Origin: a bacterium
GTDB lineage: Bacteria > Patescibacteriota > Minisyncoccia > Phycocordibacterales > JAKAEA01
Assembly: GCA_021785065.1 (NCBI GenBank)
Contig: JAJYGQ010000017.1
Span: forward strand, 925-64,924
Reading direction: 5' to 3'
Length of the DNA: 64,000 nucleotides
Below, in pieces: positions 12,901-39,012 of this stretch; positions within the stretch are counted from its first letter, which is position 1; each line of letters begins with the position of its first letter. Both the position numbers and the translations under genes were made by a program. The notes under the pieces are model-generated. The model did no database searches. It was not told the DNA's origin and was given only the letters and a program-made list of their open reading frames with translations.

Positions 12901-14306
12901 ATTACGACATTCAATATGCGACGAATACACTTACAGTAACTAAAGCGCCACTTCTCGGAAAAATTCTCGCATCTAATAAGACGTATGACGGCACCACTGA
13001 TGCCAGCACCACCTGTACCTTTACGGGAATTCTCAATGGCGACAACGTAACCTGCACCACTTCAAACGCTGCATTTGCAACTCGAAACGTTAGTAGCACC
13101 ACGGTGACCGCCGATCTCAATCTCTCTGGTCCTGATGCAGGCAATTACGGAATTAATCCAACAGCAACCACCAACGCTTCTATTAATCCGCTCGCCCTTA
13201 CGGTGACTGCTGTACCGAACACTAAAATTTATGATGGCACCACTGCCGCCGCCGCTCTTCCGACGTTCACGCCCACAATACTCGGTCAGGGCGACACTCC
13301 CGACTTCATAGAGACCTATGACACGGCGACCGCTGGTATAAACAAAACACTAACACCAAGTGGGGTAGTGAATGACGGCAATAATGGTAAAAACTACACG
13401 TACAAATATGTTTCTGTGTCTACTGGCGTTATCTCGAAAGCTAATCAAACTGTTTCTTTCGTTAAATATCCAAGCGGTACTATTAGCGGAAATTCCTTTA
13501 CCGTTAGCGCGACATCAACGTCAGATTTGCCGGTTACCTTTACTGGTGGCACGTCGGGTGTTTGCAGCGTCAACGCCGATGGTACAGTAAATGTTCTAGG
13601 ATCTGGACAGTGTAATGTTATTGCCGAGCAGGCGGGTAATGCTGATTACAATCCCGCATCAACCAATATGACGTTTAGCGTGGTGTATAACGTAACACCT
13701 ACCACAATCACTATTTCATCTGTCTCTCCATCCGCGGCCGCCACCGGCTCTAACGTCACCATCAACTGGACTTCGACGAATGCTCCCACCGGGTCAGCGG
13801 TAGCGCTCACCCTCTTCAATAGTAGCGGTAACGAAGTGGGTGTCTTAACTAAAGACGCCGATAGTACTGGAAGCTATGTTTGGAGCATTCCTACTTGTGT
13901 GTCAGGTCCATCGGGCCCGGGTAGCGGTGGCATTATTCCTATTACCTCCTGTACGCCTACCGATAGCAGCGGTGTCTACGAGACGCCCGTGGGCAACTAC
14001 ACTATTGTAGCCAAGCTCTATACACCGAAAGGTGGCTATGGTGATGGTATGATTGCCCCTTCACCTTCTCTCCAAACTCTCGCGACTTCAGCAGCAATGC
14101 CGTTTACGGTGATACCTGCTCCGACCACTAGGATTGAGTCGTCGCTTAGTTTTGCTGCGCCGTTAATGGTTTCCACCTCAACATCAACGCCATCAACGCC
14201 ACCAACACCAACTTCAACTCCTCCGACTATCGATACTACTTCTACAACCACACCCACAACCGCACCCACAACAACAAGCACAAGCACCTCGACGCCAACG
14301 AAATAG
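9936..14306 (+). CDS. Giant secreted surface protein or adhesin with about ten tandem YDG/MBG-type Ig-like repeats and a Thr/Pro-rich C-terminus
   Basis: 1456 aa. The signal peptide (LAFAFVTALLATGGFAVHAAYA) sits best if the start is the Met at 9975. The unit K(V/I/T)YDGTT...Y.I..G.L....NY.I......LT(I/V) recurs, for example KVYDGLTTTD, KIYDGTTAATSTP, KTYDGTTAATVNL, KQYDGTNTAD, KVYDGTTDATV, KTYDGTTDAST and KIYDGTTAAAALP. The tail reads STSTSTPSTPPTPTSTPPTIDTTSTTTPTT. Confidence 0.8.
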   Translation: MPVLLRVHIIIISMQKFKSYVGQFCTTHRQIAKGLAFAFVTALLATGGFAVHAAYADSATLGVTQITAVKTYATADDTYANGWEWIFDVTVPSNQTLLQMKFADWTNGTSVIPAANNIQFYSQQSTNASDEAHAIPITAADTYSGIMYINPNTDLNVNQAGRQIQIVVEARIPTGSTGGSYSTSYGINTTATSTISLSDLTQTYDSTAKSVTVTTDPSGLATQVTYNGSATAPTAAGTYTVDAVITDPNYTGTSTATLTINPAQVAVVANPQTKVYDGLTTTDPALTYTATPALFGSDTFTGALTRTAGEGVGSYPITQGTLKLDSNYVLNFSPSTFVITAQPAKVTLGNLNQEYGSTTPVTVTTDPSGLATSVTYNGSPTVPTNAGSYTVVAKITDPNYTGSSTETLVVAPRPITVTATTDDKIYDGTTAATSTPTITSGYLVGSDTATLTEAFQNKDAGTGKTLIPSATISDGNGGANYAVTLVNNTTGIITSAPATILATGVDKTYDGTTAATVNLKVLGAVPTDSLSATGDAVFDGSNVGPHTINVTNIVVSGTGVTSNDYSYNTSTSTTATINPASLTITADNESKTYGDTYTFNGTEFNATGLIKGTSDSVTSATLTSAGTVASAAFGTYPINISNVVGTGLSNYNISYNPGTLTVGTKTVTATITAESKQYDGTNTADITSCTVNGAVNGDNLTCTASNGTFSDKNVGNGKTVTADVTLVGTNAGNYTLTSPVTTTANITAAPLTVTAVTDNKIYDSTVAATGTPSITAGSLQGTDTATFSEVFKTKDVGSNKTLIPSISIDGGTGNSNYNITYVNDTTGVITARPLLVTAKGVDKVYDGTTDATVTLSDNRIAGDKLTDNYTTATFASPNVGNNIPITVTGISISGTDAGNYTLTDTSTTTAANITPAKLTILPYGVQKVYGDAITLPVLPPGFFSQGLQGTDKVTSVDLTSAGITSTAIVGKYDIFAKDAVISPSTSFANYDIQYATNTLTVTKAPLLGKILASNKTYDGTTDASTTCTFTGILNGDNVTCTTSNAAFATRNVSSTTVTADLNLSGPDAGNYGINPTATTNASINPLALTVTAVPNTKIYDGTTAAAALPTFTPTILGQGDTPDFIETYDTATAGINKTLTPSGVVNDGNNGKNYTYKYVSVSTGVISKANQTVSFVKYPSGTISGNSFTVSATSTSDLPVTFTGGTSGVCSVNADGTVNVLGSGQCNVIAEQAGNADYNPASTNMTFSVVYNVTPTTITISSVSPSAAATGSNVTINWTSTNAPTGSAVALTLFNSSGNEVGVLTKDADSTGSYVWSIPTCVSGPSGPGSGGIIPITSCTPTDSSGVYETPVGNYTIVAKLYTPKGGYGDGMIAPSPSLQTLATSAAMPFTVIPAPTTRIESSLSFAAPLMVSTSTSTPSTPPTPTSTPPTIDTTSTTTPTTAPTTTSTSTSTPTK
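10441..13400 (+). repeat. Intragenic tandem coding repeats (about 270-nt units, diverged) inside the adhesin gene
   Basis: DNA motifs such as acggcacgactgcagc, tacgacggcacaacggcagcgaca and tatgacggcaccactgatgcc recur at roughly 90-codon spacing. Confidence 0.5.
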
Positions 14307-19311: not shown

Positions 19312-20544
19312 ATGAAGCGATCCAGAAGAATTTATCTTGATTATGCTGCTGCTACGCCGCTCGATAAGCGGGTGGCAAATGCTATGCGTCCTTATGCGTC
19401 GGATATTTTTGCCAATCCGTCATCTATTCATGAGGAGGGTGTGGTTGCGCGTCGAGTCGTAGATGCCGCGCGGACAAGTATTGCTCGATTGCTCAATATC
19501 CGTTCCGAAGAAATTATTTTTACGGCGAGTGGCACTGAAGCAGATAATTTGGCCATTCTCGGGGTGATACAAAAAGCGCGTGAGAAGGGTGTCGCTACGC
19601 CGCACATTATTACTACGGTAATTGAGCACCCGGCTGTTTTTGAAGCGTGTCACGCGGCCGAGCAATGGGGGATACGCGTTACCTATTTGCCCGTTAATAC
19701 TGCTGGCGTTGTTGACCCTCAAGCAATTGCTCGGGCGCTTACGCCGGAAACGGTGTTGGTGTCGGTGCAATTAGCTAATAGCGAAATTGGCATTATCCAA
19801 TCTCTCCATAGTATTGCTACGGTGATCGCGGAATATAAAAAAAGCAGCGGCAATAACAATCACGCTCTTGGTGATCTTGGATATCCCTATTTCCATACCG
19901 ATGCGAGTCAGGCCCCTAATTATCTTGATGTTTCTTTTCAAAAATACGGCGTCGATATGATGACGCTTGATGCGGCAAAAATCTACGGTCCAAAGGGTAT
20001 TGGCTTGTTGGCAGTAAAACACCAAGTAGCGTTGGCGCCGCGCACGCTTGGTGGCGGGCAGGAGCGAGGATTGCGAGCGGGTACGGAAAACGTGCCGGCG
20101 ATCATTGGTTTCGCTGCTGCGTTATCGCTTGCGACAAAGTTGCGTGAAAGGGAGTATACTCGCTTAAGCGCTTTGCAAAAATATTTTATATACACTCTGA
20201 AAGAAACTTGGCCCGAAAACGTAATTATATTTAGTGATGATTGTCAGAAATATTTACCAAATAGTGTTACTATATGTGTTAGGAGTGGGGAAGAAGCAGA
20301 GCTTATGGTGGTGCGTCTGGATGCTTTGGGTATTGCCTGTTCCGCCGGTAGCGCTTGCACCAATCTCTCTACCGCCGCGTACTCGTATGTAATTGAGGCG
20401 CTTGATACTGCGGCGGCTACCGATTCTTCCCATCAGCCCGCTTGGCGAGATTGTAAAAGTTCCTCAATTCGCTTTAGTTTTGGCCGAAGAACCACCAAGA
20501 AAGACCTTGATTTGACATTAAGAGCTTTACGTTCTATAATTTAA
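19312..20544 (+). CDS. Cysteine desulfurase (NifS/IscS-like, class V aminotransferase fold)
   Basis: IYLDYAAATPLDKRVANAMRPY, the PLP lysine region (MTLDAAKIYGPKGIG) and the C-terminal active-site Cys loop (ACSAGSACTN). Confidence 0.85.
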   Translation: MKRSRRIYLDYAAATPLDKRVANAMRPYASDIFANPSSIHEEGVVARRVVDAARTSIARLLNIRSEEIIFTASGTEADNLAILGVIQKAREKGVATPHIITTVIEHPAVFEACHAAEQWGIRVTYLPVNTAGVVDPQAIARALTPETVLVSVQLANSEIGIIQSLHSIATVIAEYKKSSGNNNHALGDLGYPYFHTDASQAPNYLDVSFQKYGVDMMTLDAAKIYGPKGIGLLAVKHQVALAPRTLGGGQERGLRAGTENVPAIIGFAAALSLATKLREREYTRLSALQKYFIYTLKETWPENVIIFSDDCQKYLPNSVTICVRSGEEAELMVVRLDALGIACSAGSACTNLSTAAYSYVIEALDTAAATDSSHQPAWRDCKSSSIRFSFGRRTTKKDLDLTLRALRSII

Positions 20545-26684: not shown

Positions 26685-29600
26685 ATGGAATCTCCAGAAA
26701 AACCTTCTTCAGCAGATAATCTAAAAGATGAAGTATCCCAGGTTGAACAAGACAAGGAGATAGATAAAAAAAGTCTGGAACTTTCTCCTACGAGTGGGCA
26801 ACTAATTGGTAAGGAAGTTATAAAGCATGAATATGCCCGCGCAGATTGGAAAAACAGGCGAGAATTGTCGGATACTTTTCGTACGGGGACCGATGTGATT
26901 GATAGATTAGTGCAGGAGTATTTGGACCTGCATCCTGAGGCGAAATCAGAGGACATCGAAACAGCTAAGAAAAAAGAAACTGGCTTTGTTACTGTCTACT
27001 ATTCTCCCAAGGTGCAATCGTATCTTGAGGAAAAGTTACGAGTATCGTTGCCACCTAGTAACTGGGTACCATTCCCAATTCTTGTTGAAAAGCTGGGTAT
27101 TTCTGCTCCTACTGTTGTCAAATTAGTGAATGCTTATTCTAAAGATTTTCCGAAGATTGCTCAGACAGAAACCGGTACATACAAAGAAGAGAAGGGGCAT
27201 AGGCGGTTATTTTATTCACCTCTATTTGCTGAGTTGCTAAAAAAAGAGTTTGATAAATACCCGGCCGCACCTCAGAATTGGAAGACCCAGATGCAAATGG
27301 CCTCTGAAGAGGGTGTTGATTTCGCACGCCTAGATAAATTTTTAAAAGAGTATTCCATGCAACATTCCCAGGAAGAACATAAGGGTATGTTTCGAAATGG
27401 GCGCAATCAAGTATATGAGCATTATTCACCGCAGGTAGCTGCGTATATACATCAAGAATTACAACGGTACGAAGACACCCCTGAAGGATGGATAAATAGA
27501 AACAAACTCGCTAAAAGACTCAATGTTGTCGATGCGACCGTCCAAAGAATTATCGATAGCTACCTAGCAACCCACCCTAATTCGAAGGATGTTAAAAAAG
27601 CAAAGAGTGATAGGGGGCTGGTTCTTAATGTTTTCTCGCCCGTTATCCAAGAATATGTCGCGGCTACACTGGCTGCTTCTTTAGAAAGTCGCAATAAAGA
27701 GAAAGAACCAGAACCTTCCGCGCCAGAAGACTGGAAGATGGTCAGTGATATTGCAAGTGAGTTAAAAGTAAGCAGAGACATAGTAACAAAAACCATCAAA
27801 GAATATTTTCAGACTCATTCTGAGGAAGGTAGTAAGAAAAAATATCCTGCGACAACTTCTTGGAAGACAGGAAGTATTGTTACTAGACCCGTTGTTCATT
27901 ATTCACCAGCTGTTGTTGATTATTGTCGAACGGTAATTGAAGGCTTAAAAAGCAATATGGCTCAAGAAGGATGGTTAACAGTAAGCGATCTTCAGGAAGT
28001 TCTCGGAATATCGTGGACGACTATAAATTCGTTAATAAAAAAATACCAGACACAAAGCACGGACCCCCAGCTCCCTAAGAGACGTAGAAATCCAAGGGGA
28101 AAGATGTGGAAATATTATCCACCGGTAGTTGTAGAATGGTTAAAAAACGAGGTGGCAAAACATCCCCGTGCACCTAAAGACTGGAAAATTCTTGGCGAGC
28201 TCTCAGAGCAATTTAGTGTCTCCCAGGATACTCTCCGGCGTTTAGTCGAAAGACAGGCAGCGTTAAATCCTGACAGTGTCGTGATCAAAGAACTCAGGAA
28301 TGATCGAGGTGTTGTGTGCACCTTTTACTCACCAGAGACCATATTGCAACTCAAACAGTCTCTTGAACAGCATACTAAAGGGAAAAGTGAGCTTGAGAAC
28401 AAGTTAACAGGTCTCCTTGCAAACCCTGAAAAGGAGGAAGGTCGCAAATTCCGTGAAATGCTCGGACTCTTCGGTCCTTCTAACTTTCTAGATATACTCT
28501 ATGTCTTGCATCCAGAGTTTAGGGATCTTCCGGTAGACCATGTTAAGGGGAAATTAACAGAATATCTTGGTAACTACCTGTTAACTGCTATACCATTTTC
28601 AGTAGATGCTCTCGAGAAAAACCTACCGTCCTTAAAACAGGAAAACCTAAGACGCGGTCTTGCCGAGGTTATAAAGGGTGATTGTCTCAATTTTTATTTG
28701 CTTGAAAAAAAGCAATCGCCTCTTAGGGATGATCTTGAGATATTTCAATTGTATTTTGACGATTTAACTTCAAGGACAGCGAATAACCAAAACCTCGACC
28801 TCAATCAAGTAGTAGCAGAAGTCAGGGAATATTATCAATCAGTTACAGGTTCGTGGGTGAAACCGACAAGGATCATTGAATCCCTAAGCGCTGATAGGCC
28901 GTTCCCCGACATTTATCAGCAAATTAATCGGCAGGAAATCAAAGATAAGAAACGTCTTCTTATTGCTGACGAAATGGGGGTAGGTAAAAGCGCTTCCGTT
29001 ATTCTTGCTAAAGAATCATTGGGAGTAAAAACCGCTCTTGCTGTAGTTCCTAGTAATGTTGTTGCTACATGGGAAAAATATCTTTCTGATACTGTTGGTG
29101 ATGATGGTCGACAGCTAGGCTATTTTAAGCCCGGCCAAGCACCGAGGGTGCTTACTATACGTAGCTCTGACGATCTTATGCGTCTTAACGATGGCTATGA
29201 TTACATTCTTATTTCACAAGAACGTTTGAATGATGCGAACGCTGAGGAGCTTCAAAAACTTGATTACGGAATGCTTATTGTAGATGAAGTCCATAAACTT
29301 AAAAATGTTCGTGATGGTAAGCGAGCAAATCATCTACTAAACCTAGCCGAAAAAATAGAAGGAGATGATAAGTACTTAGTAATGCTTTCGGGTACACCTG
29401 TGCCAAATAAAGTTGAAGATGTTGCAATGCTGCTTAAACTTTTGCATCCCGACCGTTTTGCCCAGGAAGATAGTAAGCGTCTCGTAAGCGCCATTTTGAA
29501 TGGCAGTATTGTCAATATACGTTCTTTGCTCATACCGCACATGCAGATGAAAGGCTTGGCTGAACACGTAGAAATGCCAAACCTTACAGAGGCTACCATT

Positions 29601-31316
29601 TCTATTCCGTTAAGTCGCCAAGAAGAAGATATTTATCAAGTTCTTCTTGAAGAAGACGAACTCACGCCCACACAAAAACTTCAGATTCTTCGACAATTTC
29701 TTCTCAATCATCGCTTGCTAGACATCACCCCCGGTGTGCCAGAAGCAAAAATTGAAAAAACACAAGCAGAAATATCTAAAGCGTTCGAAACAAATAATAA
29801 AGTAATTTTGTTTGTGAATGATTATATTGAGGGTGTATTGAGGGGCGAAAATTCTGTCTTAAGTCAGCTTGCTCTGCCTCCGGGTGTAATAGTGCGAGCC
29901 ATTCATGGCAACACTTCTCCAGAAGAACGTCAGTCTATTCAAGAAGAACTCAACAATTCGTCCCAAAGACTGCTTTTGGCAGTAAGTGGTAATACTGCTG
30001 ATGTGGGAGTTGATTATTCAGGCGCTGAAAGAGTTTTCTTTTATAATGAACCGTGGACAAAAGCAGCCTATGAGCAACAGCTTGCACGTGTATATCGGCC
30101 GGGCGTCACTAAAGATATTCAAGCTGACATTTTTGTTACAGAAGGCACGCTTGAACAAGGTATACATCACTACGTTGAAGTAAAAAATAAAGCAATAGAA
30201 AAGTTGCTTAAAGGCATTCCTATTACCGAGCTGGAAGCAGAGCTGCTGAAAGCTAGTGAAAGAGGTGATAATACAGATCTGGATGTTAATCCTGAATTGG
30301 CCCAGTATTATTTTTCTTCTTTTGATAAGCTCAATAGGATTTTTGCCTCAGTGAAGGAAATAGGTGAAAAGAATTTTACGGAATTCCTGCAGCGACATGG
30401 TGAAGAGTATGCGGAATGCTACCTTAACCTGGGTAGCCGAAGTTATCAGTCGAACGCAAGTCGAGTATCCGCAACAGTCATCAGTGCTCTTGGGCGACAA
30501 GATGGAATTGAAAATCCTAAAATTCTGGATATTGCCTCAGGTCCTGAAATGCTCAAGAAACATTCGGGCGAAGGTTTACAGAAAAACATAACGAGTCTGG
30601 ACATTAATCCCGCACACTTCAAAGATTCAGAGGAAGGCACGACGGTAGTGGGCAGTTTTACTAAAATGCCTTTTCCGGATGGTAGTTTTGATTATACAAA
30701 CCTGTCTTTGGCATTACAATATACAAAGTTTGTACCCAGTCGAGGTGAATATGAACGTATCCGGGTTCTCAAGGAGGCGGCCAGGGTGTTAAAAACGGGT
30801 GGCAAACTGGTTCTAAACATGCCGTACTCGTTAGACTTTAAGAATTATCAAAAATTTAAAGAATTTAGTGAATTATTTGGTTTACGAGTCGTGGACGAAT
30901 ATTCAGATGAAGTACAGGTAGGTAATTCCTATCATTCTCGTGTAATAACTCTTCAGAAAGTCGAAGGCATTGATCAGAGTATTGACGAAATCATCAGGAA
31001 TATGTTTCGTGAAGACTGGGATGGTCTTAAACTTGTTCCGAAAGAAGCGCGTCTTAAGGATTCTCGTAAAATTATCTCTCAATTTAAGATAAGTAATAAA
31101 CAGCTCGATATTTCTTTTAACGAACAGGACAAAAAAATTATTGCTGAAGAAAGAGATGCTCTTGAGAAGGCTGCCGACCTCAAAGAAAAATATGGGGCAA
31201 TAGATCGCATTGATGGAGGGCAGATTCAGGAACATGGTTTTGTCCGGCTTAAGCTGGACAAGAAATACATTCTATTTAAGAAACTTTCTGATGGTAGCGT
31301 AGTGATTGTAAAATAG
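26685..31316 (+). CDS. Large multidomain protein: about seven HTH-like repeats, an SNF2-family ATPase/helicase (N and C lobes) and a C-terminal class I SAM methyltransferase (Methyltransf_11-like)
   Basis: 1543 aa. Repeats of 70-85 aa (aa ~45-560) share YSP....L......P..W......LA..L.VS..TV..LI..Y...HP. SNF2 motifs are LLIADEMGVGKSASV (I) and MLIVDEVHKLKN (II), with a helicase-C lobe (LLLAVSGNTADVGVDYSGAERVFFYNEPW, QQLARVYRPG). The MTase has ILDIASGPEML (motif I), MPFPDGSFDY (motif II) and VLKTGGKLVLNMPYS (motif III), and no DPPY/NPPY motif. The gene is about 41% GC against about 52% for its neighbours. Confidence 0.75.
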   Translation: MESPEKPSSADNLKDEVSQVEQDKEIDKKSLELSPTSGQLIGKEVIKHEYARADWKNRRELSDTFRTGTDVIDRLVQEYLDLHPEAKSEDIETAKKKETGFVTVYYSPKVQSYLEEKLRVSLPPSNWVPFPILVEKLGISAPTVVKLVNAYSKDFPKIAQTETGTYKEEKGHRRLFYSPLFAELLKKEFDKYPAAPQNWKTQMQMASEEGVDFARLDKFLKEYSMQHSQEEHKGMFRNGRNQVYEHYSPQVAAYIHQELQRYEDTPEGWINRNKLAKRLNVVDATVQRIIDSYLATHPNSKDVKKAKSDRGLVLNVFSPVIQEYVAATLAASLESRNKEKEPEPSAPEDWKMVSDIASELKVSRDIVTKTIKEYFQTHSEEGSKKKYPATTSWKTGSIVTRPVVHYSPAVVDYCRTVIEGLKSNMAQEGWLTVSDLQEVLGISWTTINSLIKKYQTQSTDPQLPKRRRNPRGKMWKYYPPVVVEWLKNEVAKHPRAPKDWKILGELSEQFSVSQDTLRRLVERQAALNPDSVVIKELRNDRGVVCTFYSPETILQLKQSLEQHTKGKSELENKLTGLLANPEKEEGRKFREMLGLFGPSNFLDILYVLHPEFRDLPVDHVKGKLTEYLGNYLLTAIPFSVDALEKNLPSLKQENLRRGLAEVIKGDCLNFYLLEKKQSPLRDDLEIFQLYFDDLTSRTANNQNLDLNQVVAEVREYYQSVTGSWVKPTRIIESLSADRPFPDIYQQINRQEIKDKKRLLIADEMGVGKSASVILAKESLGVKTALAVVPSNVVATWEKYLSDTVGDDGRQLGYFKPGQAPRVLTIRSSDDLMRLNDGYDYILISQERLNDANAEELQKLDYGMLIVDEVHKLKNVRDGKRANHLLNLAEKIEGDDKYLVMLSGTPVPNKVEDVAMLLKLLHPDRFAQEDSKRLVSAILNGSIVNIRSLLIPHMQMKGLAEHVEMPNLTEATISIPLSRQEEDIYQVLLEEDELTPTQKLQILRQFLLNHRLLDITPGVPEAKIEKTQAEISKAFETNNKVILFVNDYIEGVLRGENSVLSQLALPPGVIVRAIHGNTSPEERQSIQEELNNSSQRLLLAVSGNTADVGVDYSGAERVFFYNEPWTKAAYEQQLARVYRPGVTKDIQADIFVTEGTLEQGIHHYVEVKNKAIEKLLKGIPITELEAELLKASERGDNTDLDVNPELAQYYFSSFDKLNRIFASVKEIGEKNFTEFLQRHGEEYAECYLNLGSRSYQSNASRVSATVISALGRQDGIENPKILDIASGPEMLKKHSGEGLQKNITSLDINPAHFKDSEEGTTVVGSFTKMPFPDGSFDYTNLSLALQYTKFVPSRGEYERIRVLKEAARVLKTGGKLVLNMPYSLDFKNYQKFKEFSELFGLRVVDEYSDEVQVGNSYHSRVITLQKVEGIDQSIDEIIRNMFREDWDGLKLVPKEARLKDSRKIISQFKISNKQLDISFNEQDKKIIAEERDALEKAADLKEKYGAIDRIDGGQIQEHGFVRLKLDKKYILFKKLSDGSVVIVK

Positions 31317-31964: not shown

Positions 31965-32660
31965 TTAATCAAGATTTTTTATCGCTGCTTCCATATTGCT
32001 CAGGTTAGCAAACGGCGGATAGACGACGCCGTTGACGATGAGGAAGGGCGGTGTGGTGGTGGCGGGAATAGGGGGAAGCGCGATAAGACTTTGCACGGCT
32101 ACCCAATCGTCATTGTAATTAAAGGAGTAAATGTGAGCGCCGGGATACTGCTGCTTGATGGCTTGCAAAATGTAACCCTGACCGACGCATTGGGCGCAGG
32201 TGCCGGTGGGATAGAAATATAAAATAAATGGACGCGTCGTGCTGTTGGGGATTTTGCAGTGATGGGTGATGGTCTGTTCTAAATTGTAATCTTTAATTTC
32301 CATGAGCGAATAATAGCGCTCGAGGCGGAAGAGATCGGGATTATCGGGGCCGAGCTGGCCTTGTAAAAAGGAGAGTTTACTCTGCAGATCATTGAGGCTA
32401 GCGGCGATGCTTGCAGCAGTCGTGGTGGCTGATGCGCCGGCGCTGGTGGTGGACGCGCAGAGTGAGGCGTTGAGATTGGCGGTCAAGATATCGGTTCGTG
32501 CTTGCAATGCGAGAATTTGGGTGGCAATGGCGTCCTCCTCGTTTTTGACCGCGGCAGTTTTTTGGATATTGATGTAGGTGCTGATGAGCCACGCGCCAGC
32601 AAAAATCACAATAGTGATAATGAGTGCAGCGATATAGAGTTTAATGGGGATACGTTTCAT
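31965..32660 (-). CDS. Membrane-anchored thioredoxin-fold protein with a CxxC motif (DsbA-like)
   Basis: N-terminal TM helix, a coiled-coil-like segment, then ILYFYPTGTCAQCVGQ with a CAQC active-site-like motif and downstream cis-Pro-like features. Confidence 0.45.
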   Translation of the reverse strand: MKRIPIKLYIAALIITIVIFAGAWLISTYINIQKTAAVKNEEDAIATQILALQARTDILTANLNASLCASTTSAGASATTTAASIAASLNDLQSKLSFLQGQLGPDNPDLFRLERYYSLMEIKDYNLEQTITHHCKIPNSTTRPFILYFYPTGTCAQCVGQGYILQAIKQQYPGAHIYSFNYNDDWVAVQSLIALPPIPATTTPPFLIVNGVVYPPFANLSNMEAAIKNLD

Positions 32661-32681: not shown

Positions 32682-34034
32682 CTAGAGCGCGGTGCGAGAG
32701 GTGGATGGGGCCACGGCTCGCTCACGTTGCCAGCTGGGGGTGCGAGAGCGAGCGGCGTTGTAGACAGATTTTATGAGCCAAAACGGTGCCATAAGGGGAA
32801 AGGTGAAAAAGTATAGGAAGATCGAAGGCGAGAAGCGCGAACGCTCACCGGAAAGAGCGTGCGCCTCAATGACGATGCCAATCATAAGTGCATAAATTAA
32901 AACAGTGAGGAGGAGATATGCGGGAGTGCTGACAAAAAACCAATTCCAGTGCCACGGAGAAAAGGTGAAGCCAATTGTTTCTAGACGCACTGACCACTGC
33001 CACACCATAACGCCGAAACGATAGAGTAATAGTGCGACAGAAATAACCGCGCTCAAGATGAGTGCCAAGCCAAGCGGCGCGGTAAACATCGCCATGTTGC
33101 CATAGCGCGGGCGCAATAAAATCCAGTGATAGTCGCGCAAATTCATGAGGAAACCCGAGGTCCAGCGAACGCGCTGCTTGTATAATTTCTTCACTGTGTC
33201 GGGGCCGGTGGTGTATACAACGGCGTCGTGAGCGTTTTCAATGTGCAGGTGTTTCGACTGAATGCGGAAGGCCATCTCCATATCCTCGGTATTGTGCGCG
33301 TGACGAAAGAGGCCGATGTGGGTAAAAAGGTCGCGGCGAAAAAGGGAAAACGGCCCAGGCGTCACGTAAATAGCGCCAATGAGCGACTGCACTTTTCGGA
33401 TAAAAATACCGATAAGATATTCAACGCGCTGCACAACCTGAGCGAACGTGCGTGGACGATAAATCTTCATAGCCGGTGTGACCGCGGCGGTCATATGTGG
33501 GCGGGTGCCTAAAGACGTTTGCCAATCGCCAAAATAGGGAATCATTCGCTTGAGCGCATTTGGTTCAACAAATGAATCAGCGTCGAGGCAGCCGATGATG
33601 TCGGTGGTGGTGTGTTGGATGGCGTAATTGAGAGCGGTGTATTTGCCGCCATTTTCTTTTCGGTGAGCGGCGACGATGCCGGGGTAACGTTCTTGATATT
33701 TTTGAATTACCTGCCAGGTGTTGTCTTGTGAACCATCATCGATAACGCTCACGCGTAATTTTCCGGCAGGGTATTCTAGTCGCAAGAGCGATTCAATAGT
33801 TTTACCAACAGTCGCTTCTTCGTTGTAACAGGGCACGGCGATAGTAACTGACGGGTAGCTGCGTTCGTCTGCAGCAGCATGCGCGCGAGTGCGCGCCCGG
33901 ATTTTTCGGCGATTGACGAGATACGTGCCCAAAATAAACGTTTGAAAATAAAGGCCGACAAAGAGAAACACATAAAGAATAACGGTCTGCACGGTGTTCA
34001 TAAAGGTGCTTTTTAGTATAGCAAAATAAGGCAT
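32682..34034 (-). CDS. Membrane glycosyltransferase family 2, processive type (cellulose, chitin or hyaluronan synthase-like)
   Basis: TIAVPCYNEE, VSVIDDGSQDNT (DxD), GCLDADSF and the QRVRW motif (QRVRWTSGF), plus multiple TM helices at both ends. 450 aa. Confidence 0.8.
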   Translation of the reverse strand: MPYFAILKSTFMNTVQTVILYVFLFVGLYFQTFILGTYLVNRRKIRARTRAHAAADERSYPSVTIAVPCYNEEATVGKTIESLLRLEYPAGKLRVSVIDDGSQDNTWQVIQKYQERYPGIVAAHRKENGGKYTALNYAIQHTTTDIIGCLDADSFVEPNALKRMIPYFGDWQTSLGTRPHMTAAVTPAMKIYRPRTFAQVVQRVEYLIGIFIRKVQSLIGAIYVTPGPFSLFRRDLFTHIGLFRHAHNTEDMEMAFRIQSKHLHIENAHDAVVYTTGPDTVKKLYKQRVRWTSGFLMNLRDYHWILLRPRYGNMAMFTAPLGLALILSAVISVALLLYRFGVMVWQWSVRLETIGFTFSPWHWNWFFVSTPAYLLLTVLIYALMIGIVIEAHALSGERSRFSPSIFLYFFTFPLMAPFWLIKSVYNAARSRTPSWQRERAVAPSTSRTAL

Positions 34035-34057
34035 TTTGGGCTATAATCAGCCGTACT

Positions 34058-35197
34058 ATGAAAAATATCGTTATTAATGACCCGGAGGAACAGGCACTTA
34101 TTGCGGCATTGGAAAAACGCAGCGATGTGAAGGCTGAGAGAATCAAGCGACTGCTCCGTCTTCCTGATTTGACCAAAAAAGAACATTCGCCAGTAAAAAT
34201 TTTGTTTGATCAAATCAAAGCGTTACCGCGATTTAAAGATTTTGATCTAGTAGATTTTCCAAGGATTGTGACCGTTGAGCAAAATTTTGATCTTTTGAAT
34301 GCGCCGGCGGATCATCCAAGTCGGCGAGAAACGGATACGTATTATGTTGATCAAAATCATGTGTTGCGAACGCAAGCGACGGTGATGTGGTCATTTTATT
34401 TGAAAGATAAGGAAATTCTTGAGAAGTTGGAAAGGGAAGGCGAAATAAAAGCTCTCTCAACTGGTATTGTGTTTCGAAAAGATGAAATTGACCGAAATCA
34501 CTATCCAGCATTTCATCAAATAGACGGCCTCTATGTGTGCAAGCGATCGAAAAAAACCATTACCCAAAAAGATTTAGAGGATGTGCAGGTTGATTTAGCA
34601 AAAAGTATTTTCGGCACCGATATCGAATATCAATTTTTGACGGACACCTTTCCCTTTACTGATCCGTCCGTTGAAATGGATATAAAATTCAACGGCGATT
34701 GGCTTGAGGTCAACGGCGCTGGCTTGGTGCACCCTCAAGTTTTGAGAAATTTTGGACTTGATCCCGAGATGTATAACGGCTGGGCGTTCGGTTTCGGTGA
34801 CCGACTGGCAATGATCAAGATGGGTATTCCCGACATTAGAATTTTATGGTCGGACGACCCACGCATCACGAGTCAATTCAAAGATATCAACAGCACGTTC
34901 AAAGAGGTGAGTAAATATCCGGCGGTGGTCCGCGATATCTCTTTTGTGATTGACGCGAGCATTAGCTTGAATAATTACTATGAAATTGTGCGTGACATTG
35001 CTGGTAATTTAATAGAGGAAGTGCAACTCATTGATACCTTTAAAAATGAGCAGAAATTTGGAGCGGGTAAAGTGTCGTATACATTTCGTATAGTGTACCG
35101 CTCGTTGGAGCGGACGCTTACTAACAGCGAAGTGAACGATATTCACGAGGGAATTAGAAAGAAAACTGAGCAGGAATTCAAGGCGATCTTGCGCTAA
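34058..35197 (+). CDS. pheS: Phenylalanine--tRNA ligase, monomeric type: PheS-like catalytic core fused to a C-terminal FDX-ACB anticodon-binding domain
   Basis: Class II motif 2 is GIVFRKDEIDRNHYPAFHQIDGLYV and motif 3 is GWAFGFGDRLAMIKMGIPDIRILWSDDPR. A further ~105 aa (YPAVVRDISFVID...GKVSYTFRIVYRSLERTLTNSEVNDIHEGI) match the ferredoxin-fold anticodon-binding domain normally found at the PheT C-terminus. Confidence 0.8.
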   Translation: MKNIVINDPEEQALIAALEKRSDVKAERIKRLLRLPDLTKKEHSPVKILFDQIKALPRFKDFDLVDFPRIVTVEQNFDLLNAPADHPSRRETDTYYVDQNHVLRTQATVMWSFYLKDKEILEKLEREGEIKALSTGIVFRKDEIDRNHYPAFHQIDGLYVCKRSKKTITQKDLEDVQVDLAKSIFGTDIEYQFLTDTFPFTDPSVEMDIKFNGDWLEVNGAGLVHPQVLRNFGLDPEMYNGWAFGFGDRLAMIKMGIPDIRILWSDDPRITSQFKDINSTFKEVSKYPAVVRDISFVIDASISLNNYYEIVRDIAGNLIEEVQLIDTFKNEQKFGAGKVSYTFRIVYRSLERTLTNSEVNDIHEGIRKKTEQEFKAILR

Positions 35198-35285
35198 AAT
35201 CTCTGTCTTTTCTAGGTCCTTTGTGCTAGAATATAAGCTATAAAAGCGCTTGCTTCGGCGAGCGCTCGATAATTTCTTAATCTAA

Positions 35286-37992
<2,707 letters not shown>

Positions 37993-38073: not shown

Positions 38074-39012
38074 ATGACTAAAAAATTCATATTTATGGCC
38101 GTTTCTTTGAGCCTTGTAGTGGGTGGTAGTTTCGCTATAGCTTCTCATAAAGTATCTGCAGACGGTTGGTATAATGGTGGAAACTATAATTGTGGTTGTG
38201 ATAACCCTGTGCCGCCAATAGTATATGCTCCACCGCCTATCTATGTTCCTCCTCCAGTTTATACGCCTATTCCTGTGGCCTATGCTCCTACTCCTGTGTA
38301 TGCTCCACCGCCAACCTATACACCACCTCCAACCTACACACCTCCGCCGACCTACACTCCTCCTCCTGTAGTGTATGCTCCTGCTCCGATATACACACCT
38401 CCGCCAGTAGTGCAGGTTGTGCAAACGGCTCCGCTGCAAGTTGTCTGTCAGGCGATCCCAGCAGTTGCGCCAATTGGTTCAACGATTACGTGGCGAGCGT
38501 ATGTGTCAGGTGGGTATGGGTACTACAATAATAATTACTCGGTGAGTTGGACGGGTACTGATGGTTTGTTAGCAAATTCTAGTACGCTTATTTCTAAGAC
38601 GTACATTACGCCCGGCCAAAAAGTAGCGACCGTCACGGTCTACCAAAATGGTCAGACTGTTACGGCAAGCTGTTCTAGCTATGTAACTGCTATTGCTCCG
38701 GCCGCGCCGATTTATACGACGCCTCCGACAGTGCCTCCGACCGGCAATCGCGTCTACCTCAATCAAGTGCCGTATACGGGTGCGGGTAGCGTTACTCGAG
38801 TTAGTCTCTTCTTGGCCTTCTTGGCGTTCTGGAGTATCTTAGTAGCCTGGATAGTTATGAAGCGTCGTCGGGCTGCGCGATTGGCTGCACTTGGTGTGGA
38901 AAATGCTCCTACTCCTCGCAGCGTGGTAGCGCCACTACAAACTTCTTCGGTGAGAATTTCAAGTGGAAACTTCCTCACCGATCACGTCAACCAGTTACGA
39001 CAAGCTCTATAA
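38074..39012 (+). CDS. Secreted Pro/Thr-rich surface protein with a C-terminal sorting-signal-like segment
   Basis: Signal peptide and PPTYTPPPTYTPPPTYTPPP repeats, then an Ig-like segment. The tail reads NQVPYTGAG followed by the hydrophobic stretch SLFLAFLAFWSILVAWIVM and KRRR, the LPXTG-like architecture, though with about 45 further residues after it. Confidence 0.5.
   Translation: MTKKFIFMAVSLSLVVGGSFAIASHKVSADGWYNGGNYNCGCDNPVPPIVYAPPPIYVPPPVYTPIPVAYAPTPVYAPPPTYTPPPTYTPPPTYTPPPVVYAPAPIYTPPPVVQVVQTAPLQVVCQAIPAVAPIGSTITWRAYVSGGYGYYNNNYSVSWTGTDGLLANSSTLISKTYITPGQKVATVTVYQNGQTVTASCSSYVTAIAPAAPIYTTPPTVPPTGNRVYLNQVPYTGAGSVTRVSLFLAFLAFWSILVAWIVMKRRRAARLAALGVENAPTPRSVVAPLQTSSVRISSGNFLTDHVNQLRQAL

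What the first reader, a model, noticed from the sequence alone, without database searches (positions are those of the whole stretch)
34058..35197. Monomeric, mitochondrial-type phenylalanyl-tRNA synthetase: PheS core fused to an FDX-ACB domain
Bacterial PheRS is normally an (alpha-beta)2 heterotetramer. Here class II motifs 2 and 3 of PheS are followed in the same polypeptide by a ~105-aa ferredoxin-fold anticodon-binding domain (nt ~34880-35197), the domain otherwise found at the C-terminus of PheT. That arrangement is characteristic of the monomeric mitochondrial enzyme FARS2. No pheT follows; the next gene is gyrB. A single-chain PheRS fits genome reduction and is uncommon in bacteria.
Basis: partly seen in the sequence, partly recalled or inferred. 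Interest (0 to 1): 0.6.

Follow-up and report, generated by a model that had tools for sequence, protein, structure and literature searches.

The report
Single-chain PheRS of a CPR bacterium
This gene encodes a one-piece version of the enzyme that attaches phenylalanine to its tRNA, a design otherwise known from mitochondria, and it appears to be the normal and probably only such enzyme in a very large group of tiny-genome bacteria (Parcubacteria/Paceibacteria).

Summary
The ORF at 34058-35197 (+, 379 aa) has a PheS class-II catalytic core (residues 38-274) joined to an FDX-ACB anticodon-binding domain (285-379). It has no PheS N-terminal domain and no other PheT domains. Human mitochondrial PheRS is the best match by sequence and by predicted fold. 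The window holds no pheT, no second pheS and no tRNA-Phe; gyrB follows.

The gene is not a one-off. More than 5,400 protein clusters and at least 568 GTDB species genomes, all Parcubacteria-type where reliably named, carry close relatives. Catalytic residues are invariant, and the protein is more conserved than the adjacent GyrB.

I could not scan this genome for pheT. Indirect evidence supports replacement of the alpha2beta2 enzyme:
- Six near-complete relatives have exactly one PheS-like marker gene.
- A published CPR family table shows canonical PheS and PheT jointly missing from about 330-470 CPR genomes.
- 1.3 Mb of flanking DNA holds no PheT.

It is not the NCBIfam SrmL ligase. It forms a bacterial clade separate from the mitochondrial/giant-virus clade. 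Some relatives, not this window, carry an adjacent PheT N-terminal remnant gene.

Verdict: new member of a known kind; moderate interest.

The parts
34058..35197 (+). Complete CDS of the single-chain phenylalanyl-tRNA synthetase (379 aa plus stop codon)
   Evidence: ORF list. The identical protein is called in NCBI GCA_027328845.1, in an ENA assembly and in a Logan assembly. The N-terminus aligns with homologs.
34058..34168 (+). N-terminal extension (aa 1-37) made of two short helices. It is not the PheS coiled-coil domain (PF02912).
   Evidence: No Pfam hit before residue 38. The AlphaFold model shows helices at residues 9-19 and 24-34. The region is conserved among homologs.
34169..34879 (+). 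Class IIc catalytic core (PF01409, aa 38-274)
   Evidence: Pfam E 2e-55. 34% identity to E. coli PheS over 288 aa. Core superposition on bacterial PheS at rmsd 2.1-2.6 A.
34463..34531 (+). Motif 2 region (aa 136-158, GIVFRKDEIDRNHYPAFHQIDGL), including the motif-2 arginine R140
   Evidence: Alignment with E. coli PheS. R140, H148, F152 and Q154 are invariant in 81 species-level sequences.
34649..34669 (+). FPFTDPS phenylalanine-pocket motif (aa 198-204)
   Evidence: Alignment. F198, P199, T201 and S204 are invariant; F200 is F or Y. Genuine SrmL proteins have HPYT at this position instead.
34778..34813 (+). Motif 3 (aa 241-252, GWAFGFGDRLAM), with specificity alanine A243 and arginine R249
   Evidence: Alignment. 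G241, A243, G247 and R249 are invariant. A one-residue indel before [DE]R is polymorphic in the family: absent in 38 sequences and present in 43.
34910..35194 (+). Ferredoxin-fold anticodon-binding domain (FDX-ACB, PF03147, aa 285-379), the homolog of PheT domain B8
   Evidence: Pfam E 3.8e-26. Matches TIGR00472 positions 693-798 of 798. R292, D293, S295 and F296 are invariant.
34042..34047 (+). TATAAT hexamer 10 nt upstream of the ATG, with no Shine-Dalgarno-like sequence. This is a possible own promoter giving a very short or absent leader (inference).
   Evidence: Read directly from the sequence. The consensus scan, which requires a -35 element, reported no + strand promoter here, so the evidence is weak.
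35289..37358 (+). gyrB, the conserved downstream neighbour of the single-chain PheRS
   Evidence: ORF and Pfam assignments. gyrB lies on the same strand within 4 kb downstream in 36 of 60 GTDB loci that have enough downstream sequence.

Best explanation
The gene encodes a functional single-chain phenylalanyl-tRNA synthetase of the PheRS-M (mitochondrial-type) architecture in a Parcubacteria/Paceibacteria (CPR) bacterium, and it is most likely the cell's only PheRS. The catalytic core binds Phe and ATP, forms Phe-AMP and transfers Phe to tRNA-Phe. The C-terminal FDX-ACB domain, the equivalent of PheT domain B8, reads the GAA anticodon. By analogy with human mtPheRS, the anticodon domain is packed against the core in a closed resting state and must swing open to bind tRNA. 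There is no B3/B4 editing domain, so Tyr-tRNA-Phe cannot be proofread in cis and accuracy rests on the synthetic site. What is shown: the architecture, the conserved catalytic and anticodon-domain residues, the fold, the wide clade distribution and the housekeeping synteny. What is inferred: the monomeric state, the activity, the domain swing, and the absence of pheS/pheT from this particular genome.
For: Domains and family scores. Best PDB hits are human mtPheRS. The AlphaFold model has pLDDT 89 and superposes over its full length on closed human mtPheRS structures (3cmq, 5mg*) at TMq 0.72-0.75, against rmsd 18 A for the open tRNA-bound 3tup. Motif 2, FPFTxPS and motif 3 residues, together with the RDISF residues of the anticodon domain, are invariant in 81 species-level sequences. 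The protein is more conserved than the adjacent GyrB (71.9% against 62.8% mean identity; higher in 36 of 40 loci). The family has more than 5,400 clusters at 90% identity and at least 568 GTDB species, all with the same two domains. Synteny with gyrB is conserved. No PheT and no second PheS is present in the window or in 1.3 Mb of flanks from 88 loci. The 'PheRS alpha' marker count is exactly 1 in six 88-99.9% complete relatives in which I located the single-chain gene. In Meheust et al. 2019 Table S2, canonical PheS and PheT are found in 1,645 and 1,642 CPR genomes, against 1,978-2,118 for ArgRS, GyrB, ThrRS, HisRS and AlaRS, with no such dip in non-CPR bacteria.
Against: This genome could not be searched outside the 64-kb window, so a pheS/pheT pair elsewhere is not excluded directly. 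The marker-count argument assumes that the published pipeline counted the single-chain gene as 'PheRS alpha'. The Meheust deficit does not identify which genomes lack the canonical families. No tRNA-Phe gene was available for checking identity elements. The TIGR00469 score is only just above its cut-off. Oligomeric state and activity are untested. Some relatives carry an adjacent PheT N-terminal remnant gene, so a strictly one-protein enzyme is not universal in the family.
Confidence: 0.8

Rival explanations
1. The gene is an extra paralog with some other role, and a normal pheS-pheT pair elsewhere in the genome supplies Phe-tRNA-Phe.
For: The rest of the genome could not be read. Related single-chain proteins do exist as extra paralogs in other bacteria: SrmL occurs in Actinomycetota with 3-6 Mb genomes. 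Some CPR lineages do have PheRS-beta (Mukai et al. 2017, PMC5370408).
Against: Six near-complete relatives have exactly one PheS-like marker gene. Canonical PheS and PheT are jointly missing from about 330-470 CPR genomes. No PheT or second PheS was found in 1.3 Mb of flanks. All Phe-specific pocket residues are invariant, and conservation exceeds that of GyrB. The gene is present in at least 568 species in a housekeeping neighbourhood.
Confidence: 0.08
2. The enzyme does not work alone in this organism. It needs a small trans-acting tRNA-binding protein, a PheT B1-B2 remnant ('mini-beta'), encoded elsewhere in the genome.
For: In 9 of 75 GTDB loci with enough upstream sequence, and in two independent metagenome contigs, a 141-142-aa tRNA_bind (PF01588) gene sits about 20 nt upstream of the single-chain PheRS. 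It is 35-46% identical to E. coli PheT residues 1-160.
Against: The window has no such gene (tblastn), and neither do the loci of its closest relatives. The mini-beta family is about ten times smaller than the PheRS family (471 proteins against more than 5,400). From established knowledge, human and yeast mitochondrial PheRS need no such partner, and the B2 domain is dispensable for aminoacylation in E. coli (Roy and Ibba 2006, cited in PMC5370408).
Confidence: 0.1
3. It is a member of the NCBIfam family NF051887, 'PheS-related mystery ligase SrmL', which has an unknown, non-PheRS substrate.
For: NF051887 aligns over the full length at 255.9 bits, nearly as high as the pheS_mito score.
Against: The score is below the curated cut-off of 300. 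Genuine SrmL proteins score 359-415 bits and have different pocket motifs: HPYT instead of FPFT, and G(L/W)A(S/L)G instead of GWAFG. They form their own clade with 200/200 bootstrap support. They occur mostly in large actinobacterial genomes among unrelated genes.
Confidence: 0.02
4. It is a eukaryotic or viral sequence mis-binned into a bacterial MAG, or a very recent transfer from a eukaryote.
For: The best characterised relatives are eukaryotic mitochondrial enzymes. Giant-virus contigs also carry related genes.
Against: The gene lies inside a 64-kb stretch of bacterial housekeeping genes (gyrA, gyrB, thrS, dnaE, topA, infB, bacterial tRNAs). The same gene order is seen in three independent assemblies and in dozens of species. 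The bacterial sequences form their own clade (182/200) outside the eukaryote and virus clade (177/200).
Confidence: 0.01

Closest known systems
Mitochondrial phenylalanyl-tRNA synthetase (human FARS2, yeast MSF1; NCBIfam TIGR00469 pheS_mito; the 'PheRS-M' family of AARS Online, PMC11580382)
   Same: It has the same two-module single chain: a PheS-type class IIc core followed by a C-terminal FDX-ACB anticodon-binding domain, with no editing domain. It passes the TIGR00469 cut-off. It is about 32-33% identical to human mtPheRS and superposes over its full length on the closed form. The catalytic motifs are the same.
   Different: It is encoded in a bacterial chromosome next to gyrB and has no targeting peptide. 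It is shorter (379 aa against about 405-415 aa in the crystallised human chains and 420-540 aa in the eukaryotic representatives examined). It has its own N-terminal two-helix extension and an 8-residue insertion after the RTQ motif. It belongs to a separate bacterial clade, not the eukaryotic one. Its TIGR00469 score is marginal (263 against 361-477 bits for P0143, P0138 and P0149 of the mitochondrial-type clade; P0138 and P0149 are confirmed eukaryotic).
Canonical bacterial PheRS, the (alpha-beta)2 heterotetramer PheS + PheT (TIGR00468 and TIGR00472)
   Same: The catalytic core is homologous to PheS (34% identity to E. coli PheS; core rmsd 2.1-2.6 A) and the C-terminal domain is homologous to PheT domain B8. 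The predicted chemistry and the anticodon-reading module are the same.
   Different: It lacks the PheS N-terminal coiled coil (PF02912) and PheT domains B1-B7, including the B3/B4 editing site. It is below both curated cut-offs (171.9 against 237.45; 84 against 402.65). It is one gene rather than a pheS-pheT operon.
PheS-related mystery ligase SrmL (NCBIfam NF051887)
   Same: The two-domain architecture and length are the same, and it belongs to the same monophyletic group of single-chain proteins (200/200).
   Different: The window protein scores below the SrmL cut-off. SrmL has altered amino-acid-pocket motifs, forms a distinct clade, and occurs as an extra gene mainly in Actinomycetota with normal pheST-sized genomes.
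Free-standing tRNA_bind proteins (YtpR, Trbp111, CsaA, EMAP-like; PF01588). These are relevant to the 'mini-beta' found in related loci, not in this window.
   Same: The 141-142-aa gene upstream of the single-chain PheRS in Moranbacteria-type genomes is a PF01588 OB-fold protein. NCBI labels some members 'YtpR family tRNA-binding protein' or 'EMAP domain-containing protein'.
   Different: It retains the PheT-like B1 N-terminus (MKFLFDWLK..., compared with E. coli PheT MKFSELWLREW...). It is 35-46% identical to E. coli PheT residues 1-160. It is operonic with the PheRS gene. It is absent from this window.

Membership tests
PheRS-M / pheS_mito (TIGR00469) | Class IIc PheS-type catalytic core with motif 2, FPF pocket motif and motif 3 | tested here: met
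   PF01409 E 2e-55. Motifs align with E. coli PheS. The residues are invariant in 81 sequences.
PheRS-M / pheS_mito (TIGR00469) | FDX-ACB (B8-type) anticodon-binding domain fused to the C-terminus of the same polypeptide | tested here: met
   PF03147 at residues 285-379, E 3.8e-26, full-length profile match.
PheRS-M / pheS_mito (TIGR00469) | Absence of the PheS N-terminal coiled coil and of PheT domains B1-B7 (no editing domain) | tested here: met
   No other Pfam domain above threshold in the protein. The protein is only 379 aa.
PheRS-M / pheS_mito (TIGR00469) | Whole-protein score above the curated cut-off (258.35 bits) | tested here: met
   263.2 bits, which is marginal. P0143, P0138 and P0149 of the mitochondrial-type clade score 361-477 bits; P0138 and P0149 are confirmed eukaryotic.
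PheRS-M / pheS_mito (TIGR00469) | Full-length three-dimensional similarity to solved mitochondrial PheRS | tested here: met
   The AlphaFold model (pLDDT 89) against 3cmq and 5mg* gives TMq 0.72-0.75 over 390-408 columns. This rests on a predicted model, not a solved structure.
PheRS-M / pheS_mito (TIGR00469) | Orthology with the eukaryotic mitochondrial enzymes (placement inside their clade; a nuclear gene whose product is organelle-targeted) | tested here: not met
   The gene is bacterial and chromosomal. It falls in a separate bacterial clade (182/200) outside the eukaryote and virus clade (177/200). It therefore shares the architecture and works like the mitochondrial enzyme but is not an ortholog within the mitochondrial clade.
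PheRS-M / pheS_mito (TIGR00469) | Active as a monomer in Phe-tRNA-Phe synthesis | not testable with these tools
   Requires biochemistry (size-exclusion chromatography or SEC-MALS, and an aminoacylation assay).
Canonical bacterial PheS (TIGR00468) | Score above cut-off (237.45 bits), N-terminal PF02912 domain, and an adjacent or co-encoded PheT partner | tested here: not met
   171.9 bits. No PF02912 hit. No PheT in the window or in 88 related loci.
SrmL mystery ligase (NF051887) | Score above the curated cut-off (300 bits) | tested here: not met
   255.9 bits. Genuine members score 359-415 bits.
SrmL mystery ligase (NF051887) | SrmL-type pocket motifs and placement in the SrmL clade | tested here: not met
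   The window protein has FPFTDPS and GWAFG, whereas SrmL has HPYT and G(L/W)A(S/L)G. The SrmL clade has 200/200 support and excludes the window protein.

The most novel reading that the evidence does not exclude
The single-chain PheRS is not a eukaryotic invention. The fusion of the PheS core to the PheT B8 domain happened once, and a deep bacterial lineage (Paceibacteria and a few other bacteria) carries one branch of the descendants. The mitochondrial enzymes (FARS2/MSF1), the giant-virus PheRS genes and the actinobacterial SrmL ligases are the other branches. Under this reading the mitochondrial PheRS was acquired from, or shares a donor with, a bacterial single-chain gene. The Moranbacteria-type arrangement, with a PheT B1-B2 remnant gene next to the single chain, would preserve an intermediate stage in the breakdown of the alpha2beta2 enzyme.
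Probability: 0.3. Interest if true: 0.75.

Novelty: new member of a known kind. Interest (0 to 1): 0.55.

Why it matters
Textbooks and family descriptions treat monomeric PheRS as special to organelles, and the alpha2beta2 enzyme as universal in free-living cells.

- **Scale of the exception.** Here the single-chain form is the standard, and probably sole, PheRS of a very large bacterial radiation, with at least 568 species genomes.
- **Editing.** These bacteria would translate Phe codons without a PheRS editing site.
- **Genome annotation and markers.** pheT is a marker gene in some standard bacterial sets (from memory it is in the GTDB bac120 set; not checked here), and it would be legitimately absent from these genomes. 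KEGG- or IMG-style annotation conceals this, because the single chain is labelled 'alpha chain' and, where present, the 140-aa remnant is labelled 'beta chain'.
- **Origin of the mitochondrial enzyme.** The family provides a bacterial outgroup for asking where mitochondrial FARS2 came from.
- **Practical use.** A compact bacterial PheRS of about 380 aa could be useful for engineering.

Tried and rejected
- **Possible free-standing editing domain.** A weak tblastn hit of the E. coli PheT B3/B4 region at 19858-20145 looked like one, but the ORF at 19312-20544 is a NifS/IscS cysteine desulfurase. Rejected.
- **Whole-genome pheT check.** The tools give at most 10 kb on each side of a hit and allow no walking along a contig, so I could not scan GCA_027328845.1 or the 540-845-kb contigs of relatives.
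- **Literature.** Ten full-text searches (monomeric PheRS with CPR, Parcubacteria or Patescibacteria; PheRS-M; SrmL; K01889/K01890) found no paper describing this bacterial family. Subscription journals are not covered, so this is not proof of absence.
- **Supplement searches without result.** The supplements of the Minisyncoccus and Parcubacteria-streamlining papers had no pheS/pheT entries.
- **tRNA-Phe identity elements.** There is no tRNA-Phe in the window. The only call in 1.36 Mb of loci is a dubious 79-nt prediction with an AAA anticodon. Abandoned.
- **SrmL membership.** Considered because of the near-equal NCBIfam score. Rejected on cut-off, motifs, tree and taxonomy.
- **Phage origin of the IMG/VR homologs.** The neighbours (PARP, Kelch, Thg1) point to giant eukaryotic viruses instead.
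- **Promoter and terminator scan.** The scan gave nothing above shuffled expectation. The TATAAT noted upstream was read by eye only.
Full report
**1. Observation**

The ORF is at exactly 34058-35197 on the + strand and is 379 aa with an ATG start. Pfam finds the PheS class-II core (PF01409, residues 38-274, E 2e-55) and the ferredoxin-fold anticodon-binding domain (PF03147, residues 285-379, E 3.8e-26, full profile length). No other domain is present. In particular there is no PheS N-terminal coiled coil and none of the PheT domains B1-B7.

NCBIfam scores are as follows:

| Model | Score (bits) | Curated cut-off | Result |
|---|---|---|---|
| TIGR00469 pheS_mito | 263.2 | 258.35 | passes, marginally |
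| TIGR00468 pheS | 171.9 | 237.45 | fails |
| TIGR00472 pheT (positions 693-798 of 798 only) | 84 | 402.65 | fails |
| NF051887 SrmL | 255.9 | 300 | fails |

The best PDB sequence matches are the human mitochondrial PheRS entries (E about 1e-61), well ahead of bacterial PheS chains (1e-42 and weaker). PheT chains match only through their C-terminal domain. Motif 2, FPFTDPS and motif 3 align with E. coli PheS.

**2. Surroundings**

The window is ordinary bacterial housekeeping DNA. It carries gyrA, SMC, topA, RNase R, ClpB, dnaE, thrS and infB. It has seven tRNA genes, none of them tRNA-Phe.
- Upstream, a glycosyltransferase is transcribed divergently, with only 23 nt between the two start codons.
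- Downstream, gyrB starts 91 nt after the stop codon.
- tblastn with E. coli PheT, PheS, L20 and L35 finds nothing else related to PheRS in the window.
- One weak PheT B3/B4-like hit turned out to be a NifS/IscS cysteine desulfurase.
- A TATAAT hexamer lies 10 nt before the ATG and there is no Shine-Dalgarno-like sequence. This hints at an own promoter and a near-leaderless mRNA, but the consensus scan gave nothing significant.

**3. Source and distribution**

The identical protein is encoded in NCBI MAG GCA_027328845.1 and in independent ENA and Logan assemblies with the same gene order.
- A search of 5.8 billion proteins gave more than 5,400 clusters. The best 120 are all 375-399 aa, carry both domains and are 73-100% identical. 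Where named, they are mostly Parcubacteria, Paceibacterota or Patescibacteria; one is labelled Thermodesulfobacteriota and is probably mis-binned. IMG calls them 'PheRS alpha chain', and NCBI mostly calls them 'hypothetical protein'.
Named examples include Staskawicz-, Nealson-, Taylor-, Moran- and Wolfebacteria and Paceibacter, which belong to the Parcubacteria group.
- In the library clustered at 50% identity the whole family collapses to a handful of representatives. Only 318 representatives out of 1.8 billion score at 1e-30 or better.

**4. Is it a working PheRS?**

Across 81 species-level sequences the following residues are invariant:
- the motif-2 arginine R140, with H148, F152 and Q154;
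- pocket residues F198, P199, T201 and S204;
- A243, G247 and R249 of motif 3;
- R292, D293, S295 and F296 of the anticodon domain.

The protein is more conserved than the neighbouring GyrB, with mean identity to the window of 71.9% against 62.8%, and higher in 36 of 40 loci. gyrB lies within 4 kb downstream in 36 of 60 loci that have enough sequence.

An AlphaFold2 model is confident (pLDDT 89, pTM 0.79). It superposes over its full length on human mtPheRS in the closed state (3cmq, 5mg*; TMq 0.72-0.75). The open, tRNA-bound form (3tup) fits poorly as a rigid body (rmsd 18 A), and bacterial PheS chains cover only the core.

From established knowledge of human mtPheRS (the closed apo structure 3CMQ and the open tRNA-bound structure 3TUP), this implies a hinge movement of the anticodon domain on tRNA binding. 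That step is an inference. With no B3/B4 domain there is no cis-editing. From memory, the same has been reported for yeast and human mtPheRS (Roy et al. 2005).

**5. Is it the only PheRS?**

I could not read the rest of this genome. Three indirect lines of evidence agree.
- **Flanking DNA.** In 1.3 Mb of flanks from 88 loci there is exactly one PheS-like gene per locus and no match to E. coli PheT residues 162-608. On its own this is a weak test. If every genome had a pheST pair at a random position, and assuming genomes of about 0.8 Mb, only about 1.5 hits would be expected in this much sequence.
- **Marker counts in relatives.** Anantharaman et al. 2016 (PMC5079060, supplementary marker table) gives 'Phenylalanyl tRNA synthetase alpha' a count of 1 in all six genomes in which I had located the single-chain gene. 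These are Staskawiczbacteria RIFOXYB1_FULL_38_37, RIFCSPHIGHO2_02_FULL_43_16 and _42_22; Nealsonbacteria RIFOXYB1_FULL_40_15 and RIFCSPHIGHO2_02_FULL_43_13; and Taylorbacteria RIFCSPHIGHO2_02_FULL_46_13. Their completeness is 88-99.9%. A canonical pheS in addition should give a count of 2.
- **Published family table.** Meheust et al. 2019 (PMC6744442, Table S2) reports, per protein family, the number of genomes that contain it:

| Family | CPR genomes | Non-CPR bacterial genomes |
|---|---|---|
| Canonical PheS | 1,645 | 1,011 |
| Canonical PheT | 1,642 | 1,046 |
| ArgRS | 1,978 | 1,029 |
| GyrB | 1,985 | 1,057 |
| ThrRS | 2,011 | 1,027 |
| HisRS | 2,053 | 1,023 |
| AlaRS | 2,118 | 1,039 |

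About 330-470 CPR genomes therefore lack both canonical subunits together, which is what replacement by a single-chain enzyme predicts. I put the probability that this genome has no canonical pheS/pheT at about 0.8.

**6. The SrmL rival**

Three representatives with altered pocket motifs (HPYT instead of FPFT; G(L/W)A(S/L)G instead of GWAFG) score 359-415 bits on NF051887 and are genuine SrmL proteins. Their relatives are mostly Actinomycetota with 3-6-Mb contigs, such as Kibdelosporangium, Microbacterium, Kocuria and Arthrobacter, together with a few Patescibacteria. In a Microbacterium contig the gene sits among unrelated genes. The window protein fails the cut-off, keeps the PheRS motifs and lies outside that clade, so it is not SrmL.

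**7. Relationship to mitochondria**

I built a bootstrapped neighbour-joining tree on 222 core columns, rooted on E. coli PheS (an earlier version is).

| Grouping | Bootstrap support |
|---|---|
| All two-domain proteins, apart from canonical PheS | 200/200 |
| Bacterial clade: Paceibacteria plus a few other bacterial sequences, including one labelled Oligoflexia | 182/200 |
| Clade with confirmed eukaryotic mitochondrial enzymes (Salpingoeca, Coemansia) and short viral-type sequences | 177/200 |
| SrmL | 200/200 |

The position of SrmL relative to the other clades is unresolved. The bacterial enzymes are therefore not nested within eukaryotes. This argues against a recent eukaryote-to-CPR transfer and is compatible with a single ancient fusion. 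The method is crude (NJ, a single outgroup, possible long-branch effects), so I treat the evolutionary reading as the 'novel case' (probability about 0.3).

**8. A related arrangement, not in this window**

In 9 of 75 GTDB loci with enough upstream sequence, and in two independent metagenome contigs, a 141-142-aa gene lies about 20 nt upstream of the single-chain PheRS and downstream of tyrS.
- It is a tRNA_bind (PF01588) protein that is 35-46% identical to E. coli PheT residues 1-160 (domains B1-B2) and has a PheT-like N-terminus.
- It forms its own family of 471 proteins. The 120 best hits are all free-standing proteins of 108-210 aa from Parcubacteria or Moranbacteria. IMG labels them 'PheRS beta chain' and NCBI labels them 'EMAP domain' or 'YtpR family'.
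- The window and its nearest relatives lack it.
- It looks like a remnant of PheT kept as a trans-acting tRNA-binding factor. It also explains why KEGG-style annotation can report both subunits as present in such genomes.

**9. Novelty and score**

The architecture and the inferred mechanism are those of a known kind, PheRS-M. Automated pipelines already label the proteins 'PheS alpha chain', or would name them through TIGR00469. Ten full-text searches found no paper describing a bacterial single-chain PheRS family, although the library does not include subscription journals.

I classify this as a new member of a known kind. Interest is moderate, at 0.55. An aaRS specialist would be surprised that a whole bacterial radiation uses the 'mitochondrial' design, apparently in place of the alpha2beta2 enzyme. 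The finding also makes the origin of mitochondrial PheRS testable. However, the gene in this window is a typical representative of a very large, already sequenced family.

Noticed in passing
L077:9554-9979, L024:9552-9980, L091:6001-6429 (also L016, L021, L041, L062, L063, L067, L069, L092); not in the window: A 141-142-aa 'mini-beta' gene (tRNA_bind PF01588, homologous to PheT domains B1-B2, 35-46% identical to E. coli PheT residues 1-160) lies about 20 nt upstream of the single-chain PheRS and downstream of tyrS in Moranbacteria-type genomes. It forms its own family of 471 proteins; the 120 best hits listed are all free-standing proteins of 108-210 aa, labelled 'PheRS beta chain' by IMG.
   Followed up: yes
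L008:10001-11023 and L009:9923-11026 (IMG/VR contigs of 130 kb and 204 kb): Two 'viral' contigs encode a single-chain PheRS (38% identical to the window protein; pheS_mito 257 bits). In L009 the neighbours are PARP with WGR and regulatory domains, Kelch repeats, Thg1, NAD-dependent DNA ligase, ADP-ribosylglycohydrolase and a D12 methyltransferase, all on one strand. That looks like a giant eukaryotic virus rather than a phage. Only L009's neighbours were examined.
   Followed up: partly
P0185, P0260, P0262 and their relatives; L090:7001-8116: The genuine 'SrmL mystery ligases' have the same two-domain architecture but altered pocket motifs (HPYT, G(L/W)A(S/L)G). They occur in Actinomycetota with large genomes, and SrmL-like proteins also occur in a few Patescibacteria (for example a Giovannonibacteria protein named 'Phenylalanyl-tRNA synthetase domain protein'). 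Their substrate is unknown.
   Followed up: partly
window 35245-35266: A 9-bp stem (one G-U pair) with a UUCG tetraloop lies in the 91-nt spacer between the PheRS stop codon and the gyrB start codon. It is preceded by an extended -10-like TGCTAGAAT at 35224-35232. It could be a gyrB 5'-UTR structure or a weak terminator; the terminator scan did not flag it.
   Followed up: no
window 34035-34057: Only 23 nt separate the divergent start codons of the glycosyltransferase (32682-34034, - strand) and the PheRS gene. A TATAAT at 34042-34047 with no Shine-Dalgarno-like sequence suggests a near-leaderless PheRS transcript. ENA and Logan gene calls start the glycosyltransferase 33 nt further in (439 aa instead of 450 aa).
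   Followed up: no
P0122 (MBX7144632.1); record titles of L016, L020, L021, L035, L062 and of many loci between L010 and L088: A 414-aa single-chain homolog (53% identical) is labelled 'Oligoflexia bacterium'. Several GTDB records carrying 67-82% identical genes are titled Bdellovibrionales, Gammaproteobacteria or Saccharibacteria. These titles probably reflect loose labelling or mis-binning of Patescibacteria MAGs, but I did not check whether the Oligoflexia genome also has pheST.
   Followed up: no
window aa 247-249 of the PheRS (nt 34796-34804): Compared with E. coli PheS and human mtPheRS, the window protein lacks one residue in motif 3 (GFG-DRLAM against GMGMERLTM and GLGLERLAM). The indel is polymorphic within the family: 38 sequences lack the residue and 43 have it. 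It is probably neutral.
   Followed up: yes
window 9936-14306 and 26685-31316: Two very large ORFs (1,456 aa and 1,543 aa, + strand) were not examined. ORFs 31965-32660 (231 aa) and 38074-39012 (312 aa) have no Pfam hit.
   Followed up: no
window 19312-20544: This NifS/IscS-type cysteine desulfurase gave a spurious weak tblastn match to the E. coli PheT B3/B4 region (E 0.002). It is a reminder that such hits need a domain check.
   Followed up: yes
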